Of a stretch of 64,000 nt of DNA, positions 11,924 to 57,234 are shown piece after piece (the first letter of the stretch is position 1; the number at the start of each line of letters is the position of its first letter). Under the pieces are notes generated by a model, which saw only the letters and a program-made list of their open reading frames with translations, did not search any database and was not told the DNA's origin. The DNA comes from Candidatus Bathyarchaeota archaeon. GTDB lineage: Archaea; Thermoproteota; Bathyarchaeia; Bathyarchaeales; Bathycorpusculaceae. The translations under genes and the position numbers were made by a program. The stretch lies in the NCBI GenBank assembly GCA_026014665.1, contig JAOZHX010000025.1, positions 23,854 to 87,853 of the forward strand. The letters run 5' to 3'.

Positions 11924-12001
11924 GGGCGGGTAGATCAGCCTGGTACGATCGCCACGTTGGCATCGTGGAGGCCGCGGGTTCAAATCCCGCCCCGTCCACC
12001 A
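11924..12001 (+). tRNA. tRNA-Ala(GGC), intronless, CCA encoded
   Basis: Acceptor GGGCGGG/CCCGTCC with the G3:U70 alanine determinant; anticodon arm CCACG-TTGGCAT-CGTGG; T-loop GGTTCAAATCC; ACCA end. Confidence 0.96.
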
Positions 12002-31315: not shown

Positions 31316-31554
31316 TGGCAGACCAGAAAAAGGTAACTCGGCAAGAACTGCAAGAAAACAACGGTAAAAACGGGAAACCCGCCTACATAGCCTATAAAGG
31401 CAAAGTCTACGATGTCTCGGATAGCAGCTTTTGGATGGAAGGTGACCACATGGGTATGCATGAAGCGGGCAAAGACCTCACTGACGAGTTAGAGATGGCT
31501 CCGCATCGAGAAGAGAATTTTCAGCGCGTCAAGTTAGTGGGCGACCTTGTTTAG
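31316..31554 (+). CDS. Cytochrome b5-like heme/steroid-binding domain protein
   Basis: YIAYKGKVYDVS, HMGMHEAGKDLT, APH heme-ligand pattern. Confidence 0.9.
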
Positions 31555-32785
31555 AAGATAAATTGCAATACACTGTCTATTTGGCGTAAGCCACTCAAAA
31601 GATTTTTTACGTCTTCAGCGCCAAGGGTGCGACGCATTTCATGAAGATTAATTATTGTTTTCTGTACACTATCAAAGGCATTCTTGAGGTCTAAATCATC
31701 ATCCATGTAACGTTCAAAGTCGGCGGTAATTTTTCTGGTGAGAGCACGGTGGTTTTGCGACTTGTCGGGTGCTTCCATGTTTTGCAGGTCTGCAACCATG
31801 CTCTTGATTTCATCCAGTTTACGGCAGGTTTGAGCAAATTTGTCGAAGGTGAAGTTTAGTTTTTTCCTGTAATGCCTATAACTGAGGAAAAACCTGAGTT
31901 GTTCACCGCTAAAGCCTCTCGATAAAACATCGTTAACATAATATACATTACCGAGACTTTTGGACATCTTCTTGCCACCTACCAGCAGATGTGCGCCATG
32001 CAGCCAAAACCATGAAAACTGCTGTCCTGAAACTGCTTCCGCTATAGCAAGGGTGTAATCATGGTGCCTAACTAGGTTGTCCACACCACCACAACTGACA
32101 TCGATTGTAAACCCAAATTGTTTAGTTACGATTGCAGCGTCCTGTATGTTCCAAGCTGGTCGTCCAGTGCCAATCGCTGTTTCATAGCATACATCATCGG
32201 GTTGGCATCCATGCCAAAGCACAAAATCGCCCTTGTTCCATGGTGTGCCGGGGTAGGTATCTTTGTGGAAACGGCGCTTTTTTTGGGCCATTTGCTCATG
32301 TCGAGGTGAGCAAGTTTTCCAAAGCCTTGGAATTTTAACGGGTCAAAATAGATGTTTTTGGCGCCTTTATAGTCATACCTATATGCATATTCAGTCTCGA
32401 TAAGCTTGGAAATGAGGCTTGCAGCTTGATCCACAGCGTTTGAAGCTCTAATGGGGTAATCAGGCTTTTTTATTCTTAATGTTTCAAGGTCTTTGAAGAA
32501 AACTGCTTCATTTTTGCGTGTAAGTTCTTCGAGTGGAATTTTCTCTTTTTTGGCTTGTGCAACGGCTTTGTCTTCCACATCGGTTAGCGTCATTACCCGC
32601 CTGACCTGGTAGCCTTTGTATTCTAGGTAGCGTTGGAGAATGTCTTCGAAGAGGAAAGTGCGGTAGTTGCCTATGTGCGCTGGCTGGTACGTGGAGGGAC
32701 CGCATGTGTACATCTTAACTTGCATGTCGTTGTTGGGTTGAAAAGGCTGAGTTTTACTTGTTAACGTGTTGTAAAGTTTTAACAT
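31551..32785 (-). pseudogene. Cysteinyl-tRNA-synthetase-like paralog (~411 aa when joined), frameshifted at the A7 run (plus-strand T 32278-32284)
   Basis: MLKLYNTL, YTCGPS, HIGN, TDVEDK, DFVLW, GRPAW, KMSKS and a DALR-like region; one extra A joins ORFs 32126-32860 and 31551-32291 as WPKKKRRF. Confidence 0.85.
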
Positions 32786-32798
32786 GTGTGCTTCCTCG

Positions 32799-33278
32799 TC
32801 AAGGTGAGGTTTGCTGTTCTTCCTGCTGAAGCTGCTTGAGCACTTTTTTTGCCTCTTCAACGTGTCTTTGAGCTTGAGTTTGCGAGCTAAATATGTATCT
32901 AACTATAGCTTTCTTGTCGATGATGTAAGTTACTCTGCCTGGTATTATTCCCATGGTTGAAGGCACCCCATAGAGGCTTCGAACTTTGTTTTCTTGGTCG
33001 CTTAGGAGGATAAAGGGCAAACCGTAGTGGGTGGCAAAGGATTTATGCGATGCTACACTTTGTCCGCTAATGCCTATGACTTCGGCATCCAAATCTGTCA
33101 GTTCTTGGTAGCTGTCCCGGAAGGCGCACGCTTCCTTGGTGCAGCCAGGTGATTCGTCTTTGGGATAGAAGTAGAGGACTATGTTTTTTTTGCCGAAGTA
33201 TTCGGAAAGCGTTACGTTGTCGCCCATTTGTGAGGGAAGCGTAAAATCTGGTGCTAAATCGCCCACGCCGACAGCCAA
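32799..33278 (-). CDS. bcp: Peroxiredoxin, BCP/PrxQ family
   Basis: APDFTL, YFYPKDESPGCTKEACAFRD (PxxxTxxC-like, CxxxxC). Confidence 0.93.
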   Translation of the reverse strand: MAVGVGDLAPDFTLPSQMGDNVTLSEYFGKKNIVLYFYPKDESPGCTKEACAFRDSYQELTDLDAEVIGISGQSVASHKSFATHYGLPFILLSDQENKVRSLYGVPSTMGIIPGRVTYIIDKKAIVRYIFSSQTQAQRHVEEAKKVLKQLQQEEQQTSP

Positions 33279-33340: not shown

Positions 33341-33588
33341 TCTTTATTGTTCATTTGGTTGTTTTTATTAACGGGTTTCCATCCTCCTTTTTTGAAGAAC
33401 AGTTTTGGCGTACTCAACATCCTGCTACACTCACACCGCGTAATCTTTAACATGAAGCGATGTACTGCGTGTGGAAGAAAATGTGCATCCACACTAAAAC
33501 AGAAAATAAAAACCGTTGCGAACCTAAAAAGCAACCGCCCCCATCAACCACCATGGGGTACACTAAAAACCGCCATACCCACATAAAA
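33341..33588 (+). repeat. Dispersed ~250-bp intergenic element, copy A (most diverged)
   Basis: Colinear with 51748-51977 and rc(56845-57093); shares the exact 20-mer CGCCCCCATCAACCACCATG with copy B. Confidence 0.8.
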
Positions 33589-33663
33589 ACAAAAAATAGA
33601 TACCGTCTTGCTCTGTTAATTCTTATTAGCCGCTTTGTGCATAACTGACATAGTGAGTGAAAC

Positions 33664-51747: not shown

Positions 51748-51977
51748 TCTTTGTTCATTCTCAACTGCGTTTCCTTCCCTCTTCAACGTGTAAAGGCTTC
51801 CCCAACATGCTTCCACACCCACACCGCAGCATTTTCAACATGCACTCATGTTGCGCGTGTGGTGTGGCTTGCTTATGCCACACCATAACGGACGTTGGAA
51901 AAAGTTGCAAACCCAAAAAGCAAACGCCCCCATCAACCACCATGTGGCACCACAAAAATCGTCTCAATCACATAAAC
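51748..51977 (+). repeat. Dispersed ~250-bp intergenic element, copy B
   Basis: 31-nt perfect match (51804-51834) to rc 56987-57017; hairpins CAACATG-cact-CATGTTG and GGTGTGGC...GCCACACC. Confidence 0.85.
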
Positions 51978-52253
51978 AAAAAAGAGAAAACTGCTTTAAA
52001 TTACTAAACCATTGCTTACAATCGTCTTTATTATCGGTAGCCAGTATGGAAACTTGGCGCTGGTGATTAGCATATTCTCATTTGAGTGTTCGGATGCGAT
52101 GTTAATCTCACGTCTTCATCCGTAAAACAGGTATGAAAGAAAAACAGAAATAACTGTAACGTTAGCCAGCTGACTTCGCAACAAGACGAGCTTAAATACA
52201 TCAATCTTTATCTTATCAAAGCTTCAAAATACCATACGCTTGAGGCAAACAAG

Positions 52254-53855
52254 ATGAACAAACCAGATGAGCACGACGGACTTAAAATTCCGTGCATTCC
52301 TTGCACAATGTCTACTCAACACCCTGACAATGCCAACGTTCCAGAGTGGAGCGAAGGTGAAGTAATCAACGGAAACACCGAAGTCTATGAAGCCTACTAC
52401 TCATACAAAACTCTGGGTTGCCAAGAAGTCATGTGGGACTCAGAAGGCAAAGACGTGGACACCCGAGTGGTCAGAAAGCTTTTGCAGAAGCACTGGGACT
52501 TCTTTGCAGAGAATGTCCTCGGAGAAGACGTCCGATTAACTTATCGCATTCCTAACCCAAGAATTGAAGGGGCAGAAAAAAAATACCTTGTCGAAACTCT
52601 CCAAAACATCCCAGTTGCGTACGATGTTGCTACGCTCGCATATAAGCGGGAAGTCACACCTATTTTTGAAGTTATTTTGCCTTTTTCCACTGAAGCCAAA
52701 GAGCTTATTATGCTTCTCAATTACTACAAAAAAGCCATTGTAGAGGATGAAAATGAACTATTATATGAATCCACAAAAACAAAAGATTGGATAGGAGATT
52801 TCAAACCTAAAAACATCTCCATTATCCCTCTGGTCGAAGACTTCGAAAGCATAATGCACGTTGACAAAATAGTAACACCCTACATACAAGCTGTTAAGCC
52901 TGATCATCTACGAGTTTTCATAGCAAGGTCTGACCCCGCATTAAACTACGGTTTAATTTCAGCGGTTCTCCTCTCAAAAATAGCGCTTAGCAAACTCAAA
53001 ACAGTTGAAAAAGAACAACAAACAAACATTTACCCCATTCTGGGAGTCGGCTCAAAACCTTTTCGAGGTCACCTCTCGCCTGAAAACATCGACGGTTTCC
53101 TCCAGGAATACAGGGGTGTCTCAACAGTAACAGTCCAATCAGCCTTCAGATATGACTACCCAACCCCAAAAGTCCAAGAAAGTATACAAACCCTCAACCA
53201 AAGGCTTCCAAATGGGCGACCCCAAGACATTTCTGTTGAAGAAGAAAAGATTCTGCTAAACATTCTCAAAAAATGCAGAATAGATTATGAAAAACAAATC
53301 GAAAACATGGCCCCGTTCATAAACAGCGTCGCATCATACGTTCCCCAAAGAAGAGCACGTAAACTCCACATTGGACTCTTCGGGTATAGCCGATGCGTTG
53401 TTGGAGTATGCTTGCCAAGGGCAATTGCCTTCTCAGCTGCCCTCTACAGCGTTGGAATGCCTCCGGAATTTTTAGGCATGCAATCCCTTGCTAAACTAAG
53501 CAGTGAAGAATGGTCTCAGCTTGAGAAGTATTACGTAAAATTAAAAGAGGACCTATCCTTAGCTGGCGAATACGTTTCTTGGCAAAACATAGAAATGCTA
53601 AAAGAAATGAGTCACGCCACTTCAAAACGCGTTGGAATGAGCGAAGGAAAACTCGGCGATTCTCTCTCTAACTTGCAGGAAGATTTGCGAGCAGTAGAAA
53701 GTTGCCTAAACATAAAATTGGGGGCAAAAGGAATTTCTCAACGAAGACATGAAAACTTCACCAATAACTTCTTGCTATCCTTCATTCAAAACGAGGATGC
53801 TGAAGCCAAGAAAGCCTTGATTGAATCAGCAAAACTAAGAAAATGCTTGGGTTAA
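52254..53855 (+). CDS. ppcA: Archaeal-type phosphoenolpyruvate carboxylase
   Basis: MSTQHPDNA, MWDSEGK, RSDPALNYG, GSKPFRG, TVQSAFRYD, LPRAIAF. Confidence 0.95.
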   Translation: MNKPDEHDGLKIPCIPCTMSTQHPDNANVPEWSEGEVINGNTEVYEAYYSYKTLGCQEVMWDSEGKDVDTRVVRKLLQKHWDFFAENVLGEDVRLTYRIPNPRIEGAEKKYLVETLQNIPVAYDVATLAYKREVTPIFEVILPFSTEAKELIMLLNYYKKAIVEDENELLYESTKTKDWIGDFKPKNISIIPLVEDFESIMHVDKIVTPYIQAVKPDHLRVFIARSDPALNYGLISAVLLSKIALSKLKTVEKEQQTNIYPILGVGSKPFRGHLSPENIDGFLQEYRGVSTVTVQSAFRYDYPTPKVQESIQTLNQRLPNGRPQDISVEEEKILLNILKKCRIDYEKQIENMAPFINSVASYVPQRRARKLHIGLFGYSRCVVGVCLPRAIAFSAALYSVGMPPEFLGMQSLAKLSSEEWSQLEKYYVKLKEDLSLAGEYVSWQNIEMLKEMSHATSKRVGMSEGKLGDSLSNLQEDLRAVESCLNIKLGAKGISQRRHENFTNNFLLSFIQNEDAEAKKALIESAKLRKCLG

Positions 53856-53927
53856 TTCTAATCTCGCCTGCAAAAAAGGCTGCCACTTCTTTAAGTCAAA
53901 ATAGAGAAATGAAAAAACAAATGGGAT

Positions 53928-54794
53928 TTAAGCTACTTTCGATGCAGCTTTCTCCAATGCACCACTCAAGCTACTCATTTCTGCGTTTGCTTTGCGGATG
54001 AGGTCTGCAATGGTTTCTTTAGTGGGTATGGCTGCGCTGACCGAGAGGGCGACCGCTTTTTGGTGGGCTTGCTGCAGAAGCGGCTTGATGGTTTCTTTGG
54101 TTGCATAACCAATGCTGAGGGCTAATGCGAAGGCTTCTTGGTTGCTGGCTTCAACGTCTTTTTTGGTTGCGGCGATGTCGATTTTGAGTTGATCGCCAGT
54201 AATCATTAAGCCGTTATCGAAGACTGCACGCATGGAAATACCCAACTCGACTGCTTTTATGCCAAGTTTGGAGAGGACGCCTGCTAAGCGTTCATTTATG
54301 ACTTCGCCTTTGCGAACCACCAAGGTGTCCTTGCTGATCCAGACGCTACCTGATTCAATGCGTGTTGGCAAACCGACGGCGTTTAGTTGGCTGATCACTG
54401 GACCTGGGGGTTGACCTGTGTTGCTGGCGGGGATGACGACGTCTTCAGCTGCTATGTCGCCTGCTTTGGCGGTGGTTTTGACTTTGCCGCGTTCCAGCAT
54501 CAAGGCAAGTTTGAAGGGGTTTAGGTCTGTGAATAGAAAAACGTTTGATCCTTCTAAGTATGCCTCGAGTTTCTTGAGTTCAGCTTGATTGAGTTCTTCG
54601 ATTGCGATTTTTATGAGTGTGTTTTTGAGAACTCGTAAGTAGACTTTGCCCTTCATAGTTTTTTTGAGTTCTTGAAGTTGGGAAGCTCGAACCTTTTGCA
54701 GGCTTGCGATGCCGACGGATTTGTATTCTTTCAATATGTCTTTGATTGCTTTTACTTCGCTTGATTTTTCTTCTAACACTTGTTGGGACGGCAT
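53928..54794 (-). CDS. rplP0: 50S ribosomal protein L10/P0
   Basis: KNTLIKIA, FLFTDLNPF, NTGQPPGP, AGVLSKLGI; ATG 54794. Confidence 0.96.
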   Translation of the reverse strand: MPSQQVLEEKSSEVKAIKDILKEYKSVGIASLQKVRASQLQELKKTMKGKVYLRVLKNTLIKIAIEELNQAELKKLEAYLEGSNVFLFTDLNPFKLALMLERGKVKTTAKAGDIAAEDVVIPASNTGQPPGPVISQLNAVGLPTRIESGSVWISKDTLVVRKGEVINERLAGVLSKLGIKAVELGISMRAVFDNGLMITGDQLKIDIAATKKDVEASNQEAFALALSIGYATKETIKPLLQQAHQKAVALSVSAAIPTKETIADLIRKANAEMSSLSGALEKAASKVA

Positions 54795-54807
54795 GTACTT
54801 CAAACTC

Positions 54808-55458
54808 TTAAGGTTTAATTTTAACGGGTTCGCCCATAGACGTCTTGATAAAAGCATACTTTACGTTTTTTAGCCCACGCTTTAGTTTGCCATCAAGAAC
54901 ACGCAAGACCGCCATGGTGTTGTCTACGAGTTCTTCATCCTTCATCTGTTGAGAACCGACTGGAACCTGGATGATGGGTTGGTTACGCATGCGGACAACT
55001 ACGGTTTTGCGGTGTTTAGAGATTAGGGCGTTAATATCTGCGGTTGGTGGAACGGGAATAGGCATTTTTCCCCTAGGACCTAAAACTGGACCCAGAATTC
55101 TACCGACCAGCGGCATCAGTGGCGCCTCGGAAATGAATATATCGTAGTCGGTGGCGAGTTTCCGCAGGTCTTTCTTTTTGCCGTTTAACGCATCTAGGTC
55201 TGTGCGTTCGATGACTCGATCTGCTTGAGCGTTTTTTGCTTTCAGGGCAAATTCTCCTGAAGCAATAACGCAGATGCGGTTAGGCTTACCGGTTGCGTGC
55301 GGAAGTTCAACTACCTCTTGAATTTTACCTTCAGGTGCTTTCATGTCGATTTCTGTAATGTCTAGTATGAGGTCGACAGTCTGGTTGAATTTTTTCTCAC
55401 CAGCTTTTTCCTTTGCCTGTTTTATCGCTTCAGATATGGTTTTGTTGTCTAGGGGCAT
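54808..55458 (-). CDS. rpl1: 50S ribosomal protein L1
   Basis: KFNQTVDL, LGPVLGPRGKMP, KTSMGEP. Confidence 0.97.
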   Translation of the reverse strand: MPLDNKTISEAIKQAKEKAGEKKFNQTVDLILDITEIDMKAPEGKIQEVVELPHATGKPNRICVIASGEFALKAKNAQADRVIERTDLDALNGKKKDLRKLATDYDIFISEAPLMPLVGRILGPVLGPRGKMPIPVPPTADINALISKHRKTVVVRMRNQPIIQVPVGSQQMKDEELVDNTMAVLRVLDGKLKRGLKNVKYAFIKTSMGEPVKIKP

Positions 55459-55516
55459 TTTTAAGCCTCGTGCCAATAGGGATTTAGAAACCCATTATAA
55501 AAATATTCGCCCATCA

Positions 55517-56005
55517 TTAGTCGCTACCAAATAGGCTATCATAGTTACCAGCGTCTATTTCTGTTTGGACTTGGCGGGGGTCTTTGCCTTCAACGGTGAC
55601 GCCGAGGCTAACGCAGGTGCCGAGCAACTCTTTTGTTGCCTTCTTTATGGTGGGTGATAAGAGCTGGGGAGCTTTAATTTTTGCTATGCGGATAATTTGA
55701 TCCATGGATAAGTTGCCGACTTTAACAGAGTTTGGCGTTCCTGAACCTTTCTCCACTTTTAGTTCAGCAACGATTAATGCAGAAGCTGTTGGGGTGCCTA
55801 CAGTTACTTCGAAGGTTTTATCTTCTTGGTCAACGCTGATTTTGACTGGAACTTTCATTCCAGCGTATTCTTTTGTGACTTCGTTGATTTTGTTGACAAT
55901 AGCCATTATGTTGACGCCTAATGGACCCAAAGCTGGACCCAAAGGTGGACCTGCATTGGCTTGTCCGCCGCTGACTATTAATTCTACAACTTTCTTTTCG
56001 GGCAT
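55517..56005 (-). CDS. rpl11: 50S ribosomal protein L11
   Basis: GGQANAGPPLGPALGPLG, GTCVSLGV. Confidence 0.97.
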   Translation of the reverse strand: MPEKKVVELIVSGGQANAGPPLGPALGPLGVNIMAIVNKINEVTKEYAGMKVPVKISVDQEDKTFEVTVGTPTASALIVAELKVEKGSGTPNSVKVGNLSMDQIIRIAKIKAPQLLSPTIKKATKELLGTCVSLGVTVEGKDPRQVQTEIDAGNYDSLFGSD

Positions 56006-56021
56006 TTTATGGTTTTCTCCT

Positions 56022-56507
56022 TTATGCTTTTGCTTTTTCAACTAGTTTTACATAGTCTGAATGTACTGTGATGGGCAAAGTAAATGTTGCTTCAAGCAAT
56101 TCTAAGGTAACTTCGCCTTTTGATTTGTCGAGTCTGGTGATTTTTGCACGCATACCCTTGAAAGGCCCGCCGGTAATTTCAACCACGTCGTCCTCGTTGA
56201 GGTCTTCCATGACGGGTTTGCGCACGATGTAGCGTTCGATTTCGCTGAAGTTTATAAGTCCAGGAATACGAGAGCGCACATGCCTGACTCCAGCGATGGC
56301 TTCTTCCACGAGGTGTGGGCCGTCGGCTTCTATGAAAACATAGCCTTTGAGAGTGTCGGGGACGAGAAGAGCTTTTATGGGAATATGGGCCATTTCGACT
56401 TTGGATGCGATTAGCCGTGCTACGTTGCGTTCTTGCCCCGTAGTTGTTTTAACTGCAAAAATCTTCACTTCGGAAAGCTCTTCTTTTTTATCCATAACCT
56501 GTTTCAC
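56022..56507 (-). CDS. spt5: Transcription elongation factor Spt5/NusG
   Basis: TTTGQERNVA, KGYVFIEA, KOW motif ITGGPFKG. Confidence 0.96.
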   Translation of the reverse strand: MKQVMDKKEELSEVKIFAVKTTTGQERNVARLIASKVEMAHIPIKALLVPDTLKGYVFIEADGPHLVEEAIAGVRHVRSRIPGLINFSEIERYIVRKPVMEDLNEDDVVEITGGPFKGMRAKITRLDKSKGEVTLELLEATFTLPITVHSDYVKLVEKAKA

Positions 56508-56509
56508 TT

Positions 56510-56698
56510 CTAACCTGTGGTTCCGGTGGTTGCGCCACCGATGGCGAATGATAGGAGCTTGATAACGAAGCCAATTAAGCCGACTGCGCCTATTCCCAAG
56601 AGGCTGATTTTAATCGAGAGCCAAAGCTCTTCTCTGTCGGGTTTTGAGGCTAGCTTTAAAGTTCTTGCCGCCTGCGTTAACCAAGATTTTATTCCCAT
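56510..56698 (-). CDS. secE: Protein translocase SecE/Sec61-gamma
   Basis: LKLASKPDREE...GLIGFVIK with a single TM. Confidence 0.93.
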   Translation of the reverse strand: MGIKSWLTQAARTLKLASKPDREELWLSIKISLLGIGAVGLIGFVIKLLSFAIGGATTGTTG

Positions 56699-56844
56699 AT
56701 TGACCGCACACTCAAGATTTCACTATTCTATAATAAACGTTACTGTAACTTTTAGGTTTAAAACAACTCTACGCCAATGCTTTTAAACGTTCTCCTAACT
56801 TCAATTTTCCTTGGTTGCGCTTCAATGGATGCTTGCACCTTAAG

Positions 56845-57093
56845 CTTTATGTGGGTGTAGCAGTTCTTAGGCTGCCACAAGATGGTTTGCGGGTTTGGTT
56901 GCTTTTTGGGTTCGGGCTGTTTTTCTTTGCCTTTTCCGGTGTGGCACAAGAAACCACACCACACGCCCAACATGGCTCCATGTTGGAAATGCTGCGGTGT
57001 GGGTGTGGAAGCATGTTAAAGAAGCCTAAGATTGATACATCGTAAAGGGATGGAAACGGTGTTAAAAACAACCCAATGAATGGACAATAAAGA
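56845..57093 (-). repeat. Dispersed ~250-bp intergenic element, copy C
   Basis: Reverse-complement colinear with copies A and B; hairpin CCAACATG-4nt-CATGTTGG at 56967-56986. Confidence 0.85.
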
Positions 57094-57234
57094 GATAGGA
57101 CACCTATGTGGCAACCGCTAGGAAATTATTGACTTTTGAAGTGGCTGTGATGTTGGTTGTAGATGAAAGAGGTTTTGGCTTTTGCTGTTGCTTGGCTAAT
57201 GCTTTTTCAACATATCGTTAGTTTATGGTTAAGT

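What the first reader, a model, noticed from the sequence alone, without database searches (positions are those of the whole stretch)
51748..51977. Dispersed ~250-bp structured intergenic element, three colinear copies, no transposase
Seen: 33341-33588 (+), 51748-51977 (+) and 56845-57093 (-) align from TCTTT(AT)TGT.CATT to CACATAA. B and C share a 31-nt exact match; A and B share a 20-nt exact match. B has CAACATG-cact-CATGTTG and C has CCAACATG-gagc-CATGTTGG, so the stem is kept while the loop changes. That hairpin sits inside a longer CCACACCCACACC...GTGTGGTGTGG stem, and the same GTGTGG can instead pair with downstream CCACAC, giving two mutually exclusive folds. No clear terminal inverted repeats, target duplications or enzyme gene were seen. 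Inference: an undescribed non-autonomous mobile element (MITE/PATE/REP-like or an IS200/IS605 end-derived RNA) or a multicopy structured ncRNA. ppcA and secE each have their own TATA between the element and the gene, which argues against a simple 5' leader.
Basis: partly seen in the sequence, partly recalled or inferred. Interest (0 to 1): 0.72.

Follow-up and report, generated by a model that had tools for sequence, protein, structure and literature searches.

The report
New dispersed repeat family in Bathyarchaeia
The three look-alike intergenic stretches are real copies of an undescribed, multi-copy, roughly 180-base repeat found in several uncultured Bathyarchaeia; its transcript could fold in two alternative ways, it lies next to genome rearrangement breakpoints, and what spreads it and what it does are still unknown.

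Summary
Copies A (33341-33588 +), B (51748-51977 +) and C (56845-57093 -) are homologous. The claimed exact matches, hairpins and alternative pairings are all present. A 22-base core pattern occurs 3 times in the window and 0 times in shuffles.

The family is wider than the window. I found 13 copies in about 750 kb of related DNA. They come from two complete Bathyarchaeia chromosomes and four metagenome contigs, and many more contigs in hot-spring and soil metagenomes match.

The broadly shared unit is a core of about 177-181 nt, running from AACATGC to CACATAAAG. Its length is constant and its ends are sharp.

It is not protein-coding, matches no Rfam family, and is absent from the plasmid, phage and viral collections. 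It has no terminal inverted repeats, target duplications or nearby transposase. Neighbouring genes lie in every orientation, so it is not a leader.

Wobble pairs and a few compensatory changes favour folding as RNA on the C/A-rich strand, in two exclusive conformations, but covariation is thin.

B and C lie 215 and 52 nt from the breakpoints bounding the ppcA-ribosomal-protein block, which has other neighbours in every sampled relative.

Best reading: a non-autonomous dispersed repeat kept for an RNA-level fold. A new member of a known kind. No RNA data were available.

The parts
33341..33588 (+). Copy A, whole window-type unit (5' extension 33341-33413 plus core 33414-33588). It lies between a peroxiredoxin gene (-) and an alpha/beta hydrolase gene (+).
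51748..51977 (+). Copy B, whole window-type unit (5' extension 51748-51801 plus core 51802-51977). It lies 277 nt upstream of ppcA.
56845..57093 (-). Copy C, whole window-type unit (core 56845-57019 plus 5' extension 57020-57093). It lies between asnS (-) and secE (-).
51804..51810 (+). W1 (AACATGC), the first copy of the AACATG word and the 5' edge of the core. It can pair with W' (CATGTT).
   Evidence: Column pair 10-52 forms 5 standard pair types and is paired in 12/12 copies.
51813..51827 (+). X0-X1, CCACACCCACACCGC, the C-rich arm that pairs with Y.
51836..51853 (+). Inner hairpin W2-loop-W' (CAACATG cact CATGTTG).
51855..51867 (+). Y, GCGTGTGGTGTGG, the G-rich arm that pairs either with X1 (upstream) or with X2 (downstream).
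51877..51885 (+). X2, GCCACACCA, the alternative partner of Y.
51910..51923 (+). Conserved unpaired C/A-rich motif AACCCAAAAAGCAA.
51942..51977 (+). 3' module: Z (ATGTGGCA), a loop, and the 3' terminus ...CACATAA. In other copies this reads TCTTGTGG...CCACACCCACATAAAG; in B it is degenerate.
56959..57017 (-). Copy C switch module (W1 57011-57017, X1 56994-57001, hairpin about 56967-56986, Y 56959-56966).
33416..33496 (+). Copy A switch module (W1 AACATCC 33416-33422, X1 33432-33439, W2 33449-33455, W' 33460-33465, Y 33467-33474, X2 33489-33496).
51978..56844 (.). The block flanked by B (+) and C (-), which face inward: ppcA (52254-53855 +) and L10-L1-L11-Spt5-SecE (53928-56698 -). The same block exists in relatives without the element and with other neighbours.

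Best explanation
It is a family of small, non-autonomous dispersed repeats of Bathyarchaeia, present in multiple copies per genome. The unit is a core of about 180 nt with sharp ends (AACATGC...CACATAAAG). Each lineage has joined it to its own 5' extension of 75-150 nt.

Copies are old (48-91% identical) yet keep a constant length, so they appear to be under selection.

The most likely selected feature is an RNA-level fold of the C/A-rich strand.
- In the 5' half, a G-rich arm (Y, GCGTGTGG) and the adjacent CATGTTG arm (W') each have two possible partners. This gives two exclusive conformations.
- Conformation A is X1-Y enclosing the W2-W' hairpin.
- Conformation B is W1-W' next to a Y-X2 hairpin.
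- The 3' half is a G-poor, largely unpaired C/A-rich tail.

I infer that the element is transcribed with, or next to, its neighbours and acts locally, for example on transcript processing, stability or read-through.

As repeated DNA it is also a substrate for homologous recombination. This shows as gene conversion between nearby inverted copies and as rearrangements at copies.

Shown here: homology, copy number, ends, non-coding nature, conserved pairing potential, and the link to breakpoints.
Inferred: transcription, which strand is used, the cis function, and how copies spread.
For: Real, multi-copy and widespread:
- 3 copies in the window.
- 3 copies each in the sampled parts of two complete chromosomes, OY970286.1 and OY969706.1.
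- 4 metagenome contigs carry a copy, one of which ends inside the element.
- In hot-spring and soil metagenomes the summed contig depth over the L016 core is 85-404, against about 4 on the flanks. At least 11 distinct contigs cover one position.
- Similarity stops sharply at the two core ends.

Constrained:
- Core length is 190-192 nt including a fixed 36 nt of flank, in 8 full copies, at 48-91% identity.

RNA-level pairing on the C/A-rich strand:
- Conformation A has 89.5% of cells paired and conformation B 83.2%. Slid controls give 19-61%.
- Conformation B has a covariation score of 0.216 against 0.160 in shuffles (4/500).
- Column pair 10-52 shows G-U, G-C, A-U, C-G and U-G, and is paired in 12/12 copies.
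- The hairpin closing pair is G-U in 6 copies and G-C in 4. These would be A-C mismatches on the other strand.
- In L007b, a G-to-A change in Y is matched by C-to-T in both X1 and X2 (read from the sequences).

Not a leader and not coding:
- Neighbours lie in all orientations, convergent ones included.
- Reading frames shift between copies.

Recombination:
- L009a and L009b are near-identical at both ends but differ in the middle. Their middles resemble winC and winB respectively.
- B and C lie 215 and 52 nt from the edges of homology of the ppcA-L10...SecE block. In L054 that block has the same structure but sits between MGS and tRNA-deacylase, with 119- and 110-nt spacers and no element.
- None of the relatives' neighbouring genes is in the window.
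- Synteny downstream of asnS ends at its stop codon.
Against: - No transcript data could be found, so transcription and strand are inferred.
- Most paired columns never vary. Conformation A shows no covariation above shuffles.
- The RNAalifold consensus is weak, at -7.9 kcal/mol.
- Single-copy folding z-scores range from only -0.5 to -3.8.
- The same direct and inverted words could instead be protein-binding sites on DNA.
- No clean filled-versus-empty orthologous site, TSD or trans-acting enzyme was found, so mobility is not demonstrated.
- There is no oligo-T terminator after the 3' end.
- Candidate TATA-like boxes upstream are inconsistent.
- The depth ratio in metagenomes may include related, more abundant genomes, so copies per genome is uncertain.
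- About 400 kb from other relatives holds no copy.
Confidence: 0.5

Rival explanations
1. A family of independently transcribed, trans-acting small RNA genes ('sibling' sRNAs of about 180-300 nt). Each would have its own promoter. The C/A-rich tail would pair with G/U-rich targets or titrate an RNA-binding protein, and the bistable 5' module would control access to it.
For: - Length and sequence blocks are conserved across genomes whose PpcA is only 71-72% identical.
- Wobble and compensatory pairs fall on one strand.
- Composition is strongly strand-asymmetric. The 3' half is A 37%, C 33%, G 14%.
- Copies sit between convergent genes, where only an own promoter could drive them.
- A/T-rich boxes lie about 20-30 nt upstream of the core in L016 (ATATAAAT), L021 (TTATATCA) and winA. 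BRE/TATA-like boxes lie further upstream in the L015 subfamily.
Against: - No promoter is conserved across the family. The sequence just upstream of the core differs between subfamilies and is unrelated in most metagenome copies.
- There is no oligo-T terminator.
- The number of distinct copies (at least 11 contigs at one position in one metagenome) and the depth ratio are far above known sRNA paralogue families.
- Positions are not conserved between relatives.
- Degenerate and internally deleted copies exist.
- No expression data.
Confidence: 0.2
2. A true transposon derivative, mobilised in trans by a transposase or recombinase encoded elsewhere in the genome. Candidates are a MITE, an IS200/IS605-type PATE, or the non-coding end of an IS110-type element with its guide RNA. 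The internal arms W'-Y would recognise the element's own ends.
For: - Both ends are sharp, there are many copies, and there are no TIRs or TSDs, as in IS200/IS605 and IS110 families.
- Assemblies break at the element (L017; Logan contigs end at the core edges).
- Copies lie at synteny breakpoints, and inverted pairs flank 3.4-4.9 kb blocks in three genomes.
- The reverse complement of W'-Y (CCACACGCTCAACATG) resembles a head-to-tail junction of the element's 3' CCACAC and 5' CTCAACATG (read from the sequence).
Against: - No transposase of any matching kind lies next to a copy, and no OrfB_IS605, Y1 or IS110 domain appears in any Pfam-annotated locus.
- No window gene that I scanned is mobile.
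- Copies within a genome are only 48-82% identical, so there has been no recent burst.
- The hairpins near the two ends are not alike.
- No tandem or circular junction appears in contigs.
- No filled-versus-empty pair was seen.
- The weak CTTTAT(T)GT / ACATAAAG symmetry exists only in the window subfamily.
Confidence: 0.17
3. A DNA-level element: clustered direct and inverted words (CCACAC four to five times, GTGTGG twice, CAACATG/CATGTTG) that bind an architectural or regulatory protein. It would mark domain boundaries or recombination sites, with no role for RNA.
For: - Short words are repeated in both orientations at fixed spacing, and the length is constant.
- Inward-facing inverted pairs flank blocks in 3 of 3 multi-copy loci.
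- The RNA is not strongly stable thermodynamically.
Against: - Changes in one word are matched in its partners (L007b triple change; winA ACATC/GATGT). That is expected for base pairing, not for independent binding sites.
- G-U wobbles are tolerated on one strand only.
- The orientation pattern is not statistically significant: 5 adjacent pairs, of which 2 direct, 3 inward and 0 outward.
Confidence: 0.08
4. A family of small protein genes on either strand. The sense ORFs carry a CxxCG motif; the antisense ORFs start MWVW...
For: ORFs of 45-126 aa overlap most copies on both strands.
Against: - Frames differ between copies because of 1-2 nt indels.
- There are stops: winB has ATG-TGA, L021 stops after 13 codons, and L009a stops in the sense frame.
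- Differences between close copies come in clusters, not at third codon positions.
- Skewed composition (G/T-poor on the sense strand, A-poor on the antisense strand) makes stop codons rare on both strands by chance.
Confidence: 0.02

Closest known systems
ERIC/IRU, BOX and similar small dispersed intergenic repeats of bacteria
   Same: It is 100-300 nt, intergenic, and occurs in any orientation in many diverged copies of constant length. Positions differ between related genomes. It has no enzyme gene of its own, a modular build with conserved ends and a variable middle, and the potential to fold when transcribed. It is a substrate for recombination. (Comparison from my own knowledge of these families.)
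   Different: It is archaeal. It is not an overall imperfect palindrome like ERIC. It is strongly strand-asymmetric (C/A-rich), with a bistable hairpin module and an unpaired tail. There is no sequence similarity.
MITEs (including the archaeal Sulfolobus SM/SMN1 types)
   Same: Small, non-coding, multi-copy and intergenic, found at rearrangement points, and it breaks assemblies.
   Different: No terminal inverted repeats, no target-site duplications, no parent IS, and copies that are far from identical.
IS200/IS605-derived PATEs and TnpB omega-RNA regions
   Same: No TIR or TSD, a sharp and highly conserved 3' end, hairpins near the ends, and a structured 3' region of about 150-200 nt.
   Different: No TnpA/TnpB was seen anywhere in the annotated loci. 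The two end hairpins are unlike each other. No conserved 5' target word could be defined.
IS110-family bridge (guide) RNA ends
   Same: A non-coding structured segment of about 180 nt, with internal arms complementary to the element's own two termini. No TIR or TSD.
   Different: There is no DEDD/IS110 recombinase gene beside any copy, and no two-loop bridge architecture was demonstrated. This is a lead from reading the sequence and from the title of bioRxiv 10.1101/2024.06.21.599552. It was not tested.
Sibling small RNAs and bistable riboregulators
   Same: Several paralogous copies per genome, alternative exclusive helices, and a single-stranded effector-like tail.
   Different: The copy number is too high. 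No promoter or terminator is conserved, and there is no association with a gene class.

Membership tests
MITE | Terminal inverted repeats | tested here: not met
   The core termini AACATGC... and ...CACATAAAG are not inverted copies of each other. A weak CTTTAT(T)GT / ACATAAAG symmetry appears only in the window subfamily.
MITE | Target-site duplications flanking each copy | tested here: not met
   The longest direct repeat between the flanks is no better than shuffles in 9 of 11 copies. The best cases are winC with 9 nt (16/300 shuffles) and L015 with 8 nt (38/300).
MITE | A parent IS with the same ends and a transposase | tested here: inconclusive
   None was found in about 750 kb of held DNA, nor in plasmids, phages or viral contigs. 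Whole genomes could not be scanned.
MITE | Many near-identical copies and insertion polymorphism | tested here: inconclusive
   There are many copies, but identity is 48-91%. Orthologous sites in relatives lack the element, but the neighbouring genes differ too.
IS200/IS605 PATE / omega-RNA | TnpA (Y1) or TnpB encoded in or near related copies | tested here: not met
   No such Pfam domain was found in any annotated locus (L026-L055) or in the window genes I scanned.
IS200/IS605 PATE / omega-RNA | Similar subterminal hairpins at both ends; a conserved target word 5' of the left end | tested here: inconclusive
   The 5' hairpin (CCACAC..GTGTGG) and the 3' hairpin (GGTGTG..CACACC) differ. The left end beyond the core is lineage-specific, so no target word can be read.
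REP/BIME | 20-40 nt G+C-rich palindromes with a RAYT transposase | tested here: not met
   The unit is about 180 nt and is not a simple palindrome. No RAYT was seen.
Any Rfam family (riboswitches, ribozymes, SRP RNA, RNase P, C/D and H/ACA sRNAs, HEARO and others) | A covariance-model match | tested here: not met
   At gathering threshold the only hit was tRNA-Ala at 11924. In permissive mode on copy B and on L016 nothing scored better than E=1.8.
Riboswitch / 5' leader | Lies upstream of, and co-oriented with, functionally related genes | tested here: not met
   5 of 12 copies face a convergent gene. The neighbours are unrelated: ppcA, secE, a hydrolase, SUI1, argS, a MiaB-like gene, CDC48 and a surface protein.
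Trans-acting sRNA gene | Its own promoter and terminator; a discrete transcript | not testable with these tools
   No RNA runs hold these sequences. TATA-like boxes are inconsistent, and no oligo-T follows the 3' end.
Structured RNA in general | Significant covariation | tested here: inconclusive
   With 12 sequences, conformation B scores 0.216 against 0.160 (4/500 shuffles). Conformation A is not above shuffles. Most pairs are invariant.
Protein-coding gene | A conserved reading frame | tested here: not met
   Frameshifts and stops occur between copies on both strands.

The most novel reading that the evidence does not exclude
The element is a self-recognising mobile RNA/DNA module. Its internal W'-Y strand (CAUGUUGAG-CGUGUGG) is complementary to both of its own termini: the 5' CUCAACAUG and the 3' CCACAC. 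It would act as a built-in guide or splint that brings the two ends together for an RNA-guided recombinase (bridge-RNA or omega-RNA style), or for a circular or retro-transposed intermediate. The A-rich 3' flank and the excess of 3' ends over 5' ends in metagenome depth would fit the retro-transposed reading. Inverted pairs of copies could then move whole gene blocks such as ppcA plus the L10-SecE operon. That would be a new kind of archaeal mobile element.
Probability: 0.1. Interest if true: 0.85.

Novelty: new member of a known kind. Interest (0 to 1): 0.5.

Why it matters
Bathyarchaeia are abundant, uncultured archaea, and almost nothing is known about their non-coding DNA.
- A conserved multi-copy element gives a handle on how their genomes rearrange. 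Here it sits beside both edges of a relocated block that holds a core ribosomal-protein operon.
- It explains why their assemblies break at these points.
- It provides a candidate RNA switch module that could be probed directly.
- If a trans-acting enzyme or an RNA-guided step lies behind its spread, it would add a new archaeal mobile system.
- If not, it is an archaeal counterpart of the long-unexplained ERIC/BOX class of repeats.

Tried and rejected
- Rfam, at gathering threshold and in permissive mode: nothing.
- Protein coding on either strand: rejected because of frame shifts and stops.
- Viral contigs, plasmids and phages: no match.
- RNA-seq evidence: no runs available.
- Target-site duplications: none above chance. 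The 9-nt AAAAGCATT repeat around copy C is probably chance, and its downstream copy is part of the native secE promoter.
- A long-range helix between the 5' extension and the variable middle. It looked good in winA, winB, winC and L009a. However, cognate duplex energies are not better than non-cognate ones (-17.0 against -15.3 kcal/mol, with mixed ranks), so I rejected it as an A-run/T-run artefact.
- H/ACA, C/D box, a bulge-helix-bulge (BHB) splicing motif and a TnpB zinc-finger remnant (CxxCG in the sense frame): considered from the sequence and rejected, because the defining motifs or geometry are absent.
- A covariance model of the switch module found no copy beyond those found by nhmmer.
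- Simple inversion between B and C as the cause of the new neighbourhood: rejected, because none of the relatives' flanking genes is anywhere in the window.
- Two contig look-ups with window ORFs failed, because the called start codons differ.
Full report
**1. The observation**

- They align over their whole length with 74% mean column identity.
- The longest exact matches are 31 nt for B and C and 20 nt for A and B, as stated.
- The pattern CACACCGC-N(20-40)-GCGTGTGG occurs three times in the window and never in 100 shuffles.
- A profile built from the family scores the three copies at E = 1e-42 to 1e-51. It finds no fourth copy in the window, even at maximum sensitivity or with a covariance model.
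- The hairpins CAACATG-cact-CATGTTG (B) and CCAACATG-gagc-CATGTTGG (C) are present. So are the enclosing CCACAC(C)GC / GCGTGTGG stem and the alternative partner CCACAC downstream.
- In copy A the inner hairpin is reduced to ACAT/ATGT.
- The B-versus-C difference lies only in the loop, so it says nothing about compensation.

**2. Organism and setting**

The closest relatives of the window's AsnRS, Spt5 and PEP carboxylase are named Candidatus Bathyarchaeota or Bathyarchaeia by their sources.
- Copy A lies between a peroxiredoxin gene (-) and an alpha/beta hydrolase gene (+).
- Copy B lies 277 nt upstream of ppcA (Pfam PEPcase_2, E = 1e-186).
- Copy C lies between asnS and the secE-spt5-L11-L1-L10 operon.
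- The other window genes I scanned are housekeeping genes: MetRS, CysRS, UDG, RadA, NFACT and others. No transposase, integrase or reverse transcriptase was seen.

**3. More copies elsewhere**

One scan of species-representative genomes and one of JGI metagenomes were made with a 22-base core pattern. Besides the expected roughly ten chance hits, they returned true homologues.
- Two complete Bathyarchaeia chromosomes: OY970286.1 (locus L007) and OY969706.1 (locus L009).
- Four metagenome contigs: L015, L016, L017 and L021.

Profile searches of all held DNA then found second and third copies inside L007 and L009, and a degenerate copy in L043, which is from the L007 genome and has lost about 45 nt (X1 to W2). 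That makes 13 copies in about 750 kb.
- No copy was found in about 400 kb from other relatives. These are the asnS loci L026-L030, the ribosomal-protein operon loci L031-L040 and L044-L053, and the ppcA loci L041, L054 and L055.
- L042, the ppcA locus of the L009 genome, also holds no copy.
- The window's own genome is not in the genome collection, because none of its three matches was returned.

**4. The unit and its ends**

All full copies share a core that starts at (C)TCAACATGC and ends at CCACACCCACATAAAG.
- Measured with fixed flanks, its length is 190-192 nt in 8 full copies.
- Pairwise identity is 48-91% overall and 67-74% within the window.
- Upstream of the core the sequence is subfamily-specific. 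The window's three copies share about 75 nt (TCTTTATTGT...CATCC). L015, L016, L017, L021 and L009b share a different domain of 110-150 nt.

Contigs of two hot-spring metagenomes and one soil metagenome were laid on L016 and on copy C.
- Summed depth is 85-404 over the core, against about 4 on the L016 flanks.
- At least 11 distinct contigs cover one position.
- Similarity ends at the two core edges: L016 1204 and 1382-1386, window 57017-57021 and 56845.
- Depth is zero over the window-type 5' extension.
- Logan contigs of the L016 locus end at the core edges, and contig L017 ends inside the element. Both are the behaviour of a repeat.
- A short form lacking about 76 nt (from after W' to Z) also exists in the soil sample.
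- Some of the depth may come from related, more abundant genomes, so the number of copies per genome remains uncertain.

**5. What it is not**

- *Not a known RNA family.* The gathering-threshold scan found only tRNA-Ala. Permissive scans of copy B and L016 found nothing better than E = 1.8.
- *Not coding.* ORFs overlap the copies on both strands, but their frames change between copies through 1-2 nt indels, and several copies have early stops. The skewed composition (sense strand A 31%, C 31%, G 18%, T 19%) makes stop codons rare by chance.
- *Not a leader or riboswitch.* Five of twelve copies face a convergent gene, three have a divergent gene upstream, and the neighbours are functionally unrelated.
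- *Not in* viral contigs, plasmids or phages.
- *No terminal inverted repeats and no target-site duplications* above chance.
- *No transposase next to any copy*, and no TnpA, TnpB or IS110 domain in any Pfam-annotated locus.

**6. Structure**

The 5' half of the core carries, in order:
- W1 (CAACATG)
- X0-X1 (CCACACCCACACCGC)
- W2 (CAACATG)
- W' (CATGTTG)
- Y (GCGTGTGG)
- X2 (CCACACC)

W' can pair with W2 or with W1, and Y can pair with X1 or with X2. This gives conformation A (X1-Y enclosing W2-W') and conformation B (W1-W' beside Y-X2).

On an alignment of 12 copies:
- Conformation A has 89.5% of cells paired and conformation B 83.2%. With partners slid by 1-3 columns the figure is 19-61%.
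- Most pairs never vary.
- Conformation B has a covariation score of 0.216 against 0.160 in shuffles (4 of 500 reach it). The tool warns that this number is not a probability.
- Column pair 10-52 (W1-W') shows five standard pair types and is paired in all 12 copies. The rival pair 47-52 is broken in two copies.

Read directly from the sequences:
- In L007b, Y reads CCATGTGG. The G-to-A change is matched by C-to-T in both X1 (ACATGG) and X2 (CCACAT).
- winA has ACATC/GATGT where the other copies have ACATG/(C/T)ATGT.
- L009c pairs Y with X2 only through G-U wobbles.

Wobble pairs at these places, including the hairpin closing pair (G-U in 6 copies, G-C in 4), would be A-C mismatches on the other strand or in a DNA cruciform. 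The evidence therefore points to RNA of the C/A-rich strand.

The case is not strong.
- The RNAalifold consensus is only -7.9 kcal/mol.
- Single-copy z-scores run from -0.5 to -3.8, and the minimum-energy folds differ between copies. That fits either bistability or a weak structure.
- The 3' half (A 37%, C 33%, G 14%) is largely unpaired. It holds the conserved motif GAACCCAAAAAGCAAC and a small, register-variable hairpin before the 3' end.
- A long-range helix between the 5' extension and the middle looked attractive in four copies but failed a cognate-versus-non-cognate test.

**7. Promoter and terminator**

- In the L015 subfamily a GAAA(A/T)T...CTTATAGG box lies about 150 nt upstream.
- In L016, L021 and winA, A/T-rich boxes lie 20-30 nt upstream of the core edge.
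- Other copies have nothing convincing.
- No oligo-T follows the 3' end. An A-rich run follows it in 8 of 12 copies.
- No RNA data set holds any of these loci. Transcription is therefore an inference.

**8. Recombination and rearrangement**

*Clustering and orientation.* In all three multi-copy loci, neighbouring inverted copies face inward and flank 3.4-4.9 kb. These are B(+)/C(-) in the window, L007b(+)/L007a(-), and L009a(+)/L009b(-), the last with L009c(+) lying between them. With five adjacent pairs (2 direct, 3 inward, 0 outward), the orientation pattern is not significant. The local clustering is clear.

*Gene conversion.* Members of a pair are each other's closest relatives at their ends.
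- L009a and L009b are nearly identical over the first and last 60 nt or so, but differ in the middle.
- The middle of L009b resembles winB and that of L009a resembles winC.
- This mosaic is what gene conversion between nearby inverted repeats would produce.

*The relocated block.* The block between B and C consists of ppcA convergent with L10-L1-L11-Spt5-SecE.
- The same block exists with the same structure in L054 (GCA_026014725.1), and in part in L041.
- In L054 it lies between MGS and tRNA-deacylase/OTCase, with 119- and 110-nt spacers and no element.
- In 20 further ribosomal-protein operon loci, secE is likewise preceded by the tRNA-deacylase gene.
- None of those neighbouring genes is anywhere in the window.
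- Homology with relatives ends about 95 nt upstream of secE, 52 nt from the 3' end of C. It ends about 57 nt upstream of ppcA, 215 nt from the 3' end of B.
- On the other side of C, synteny with the relatives' asnS loci (cation-efflux, MFS, asnS) ends at the asnS stop codon.

B and C therefore sit beside both edges of a relocated block. This is what one expects of dispersed repeats that serve as recombination substrates, or of a composite-transposon-like move. The data do not distinguish the two.

**9. Interpretation**

The number of distinct copies, the sharp ends with unrelated flanks, the non-conserved positions, the decayed and shortened copies and the link to breakpoints fit a non-autonomous dispersed repeat better than a small family of sRNA genes. 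The constant length, the conserved blocks across deep divergence and the compensatory and wobble changes show that copies are not simply decaying. An RNA-level fold of the sense strand is the most economical constraint.

My estimates:
- About 0.5 for a dispersed repeat kept for a cis-acting RNA fold, which also drives recombination.
- About 0.2 for trans-acting sibling sRNA genes.
- About 0.17 for a true transposase-mobilised derivative (MITE, PATE or IS110-like).
- About 0.08 for a DNA-level protein-binding element.
- About 0.02 for coding.

How copies spread, whether they are transcribed and what they do are not shown.

**10. Comparison and novelty**

In behaviour, the closest known things are the bacterial ERIC/IRU and BOX classes of small dispersed repeats, and after them the TIR-less IS200/IS605 and IS110 end-derived elements (comparison from my own knowledge). 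It fails the membership tests for MITE (no TIR, no TSD), REP, every Rfam family and riboswitch/leader. The tests for PATE and IS110 origin could not be completed without whole genomes. Two literature searches on Bathyarchaeia repeats and non-coding RNA found nothing describing it. I rate it a new member of a known kind, namely small dispersed intergenic repeats, and of moderate interest.

One less ordinary reading is not excluded. The internal W'-Y strand is complementary to both termini of the element, which suggests self-recognition of the ends. I give that reading about 0.1.

Noticed in passing
window 31551-32291 (-) and 32126-32860 (-): Two overlapping ORFs. The first matches only the C-terminal half of the class-I CysRS catalytic domain, so cysS appears to be split by a frameshift or a sequencing error.
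   Followed up: partly
window 56699-56790: The roughly 95 nt upstream of secE is conserved with relatives (84-87% identity). It holds two AACGTTTA(A/T) boxes, probably the operon's promoter region.
   Followed up: partly
window 57094-57234: The 140 nt between the asnS stop codon and copy C is C/A-rich and has no counterpart downstream of asnS in relatives. It may be a decayed further copy.
   Followed up: no
L016 1255->1333 and window 56882->56959 (soil metagenome X3): Some contigs carry a short form of the element that skips about 76-77 nt, joining W' directly to the Z/3' module.
   Followed up: no
L043 16070-16215: A degenerate copy in the L007 genome. It has lost about 45 nt (X1 through W2) and its 3' end has changed to CACCCGCAGAAAG.
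   Followed up: yes
L042 11859-20600: Next to ppcA in the L009 genome lies an island with two integrase genes, a DUF3987 gene and an RHH protein. It looks like an integrated element and holds no copy of the repeat.
   Followed up: no
L038 15906-16937: A DDE_Tnp_1 transposase gene lies in one relative's ribosomal-protein operon neighbourhood. It is not associated with the repeat.
   Followed up: no
window 11924-12001: tRNA-Ala (GGC), the only Rfam or ARAGORN hit in the window.
   Followed up: yes
flanks of all copies (for example window 33589-33603 and 51978-51995; L009 309-335): An A-rich run follows the 3' end in 8 of 12 copies. A T-run (T4-T8) lies 5-25 nt upstream of the core in several. 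In some copies these double as oligo-T terminators of convergent neighbouring genes.
   Followed up: partly
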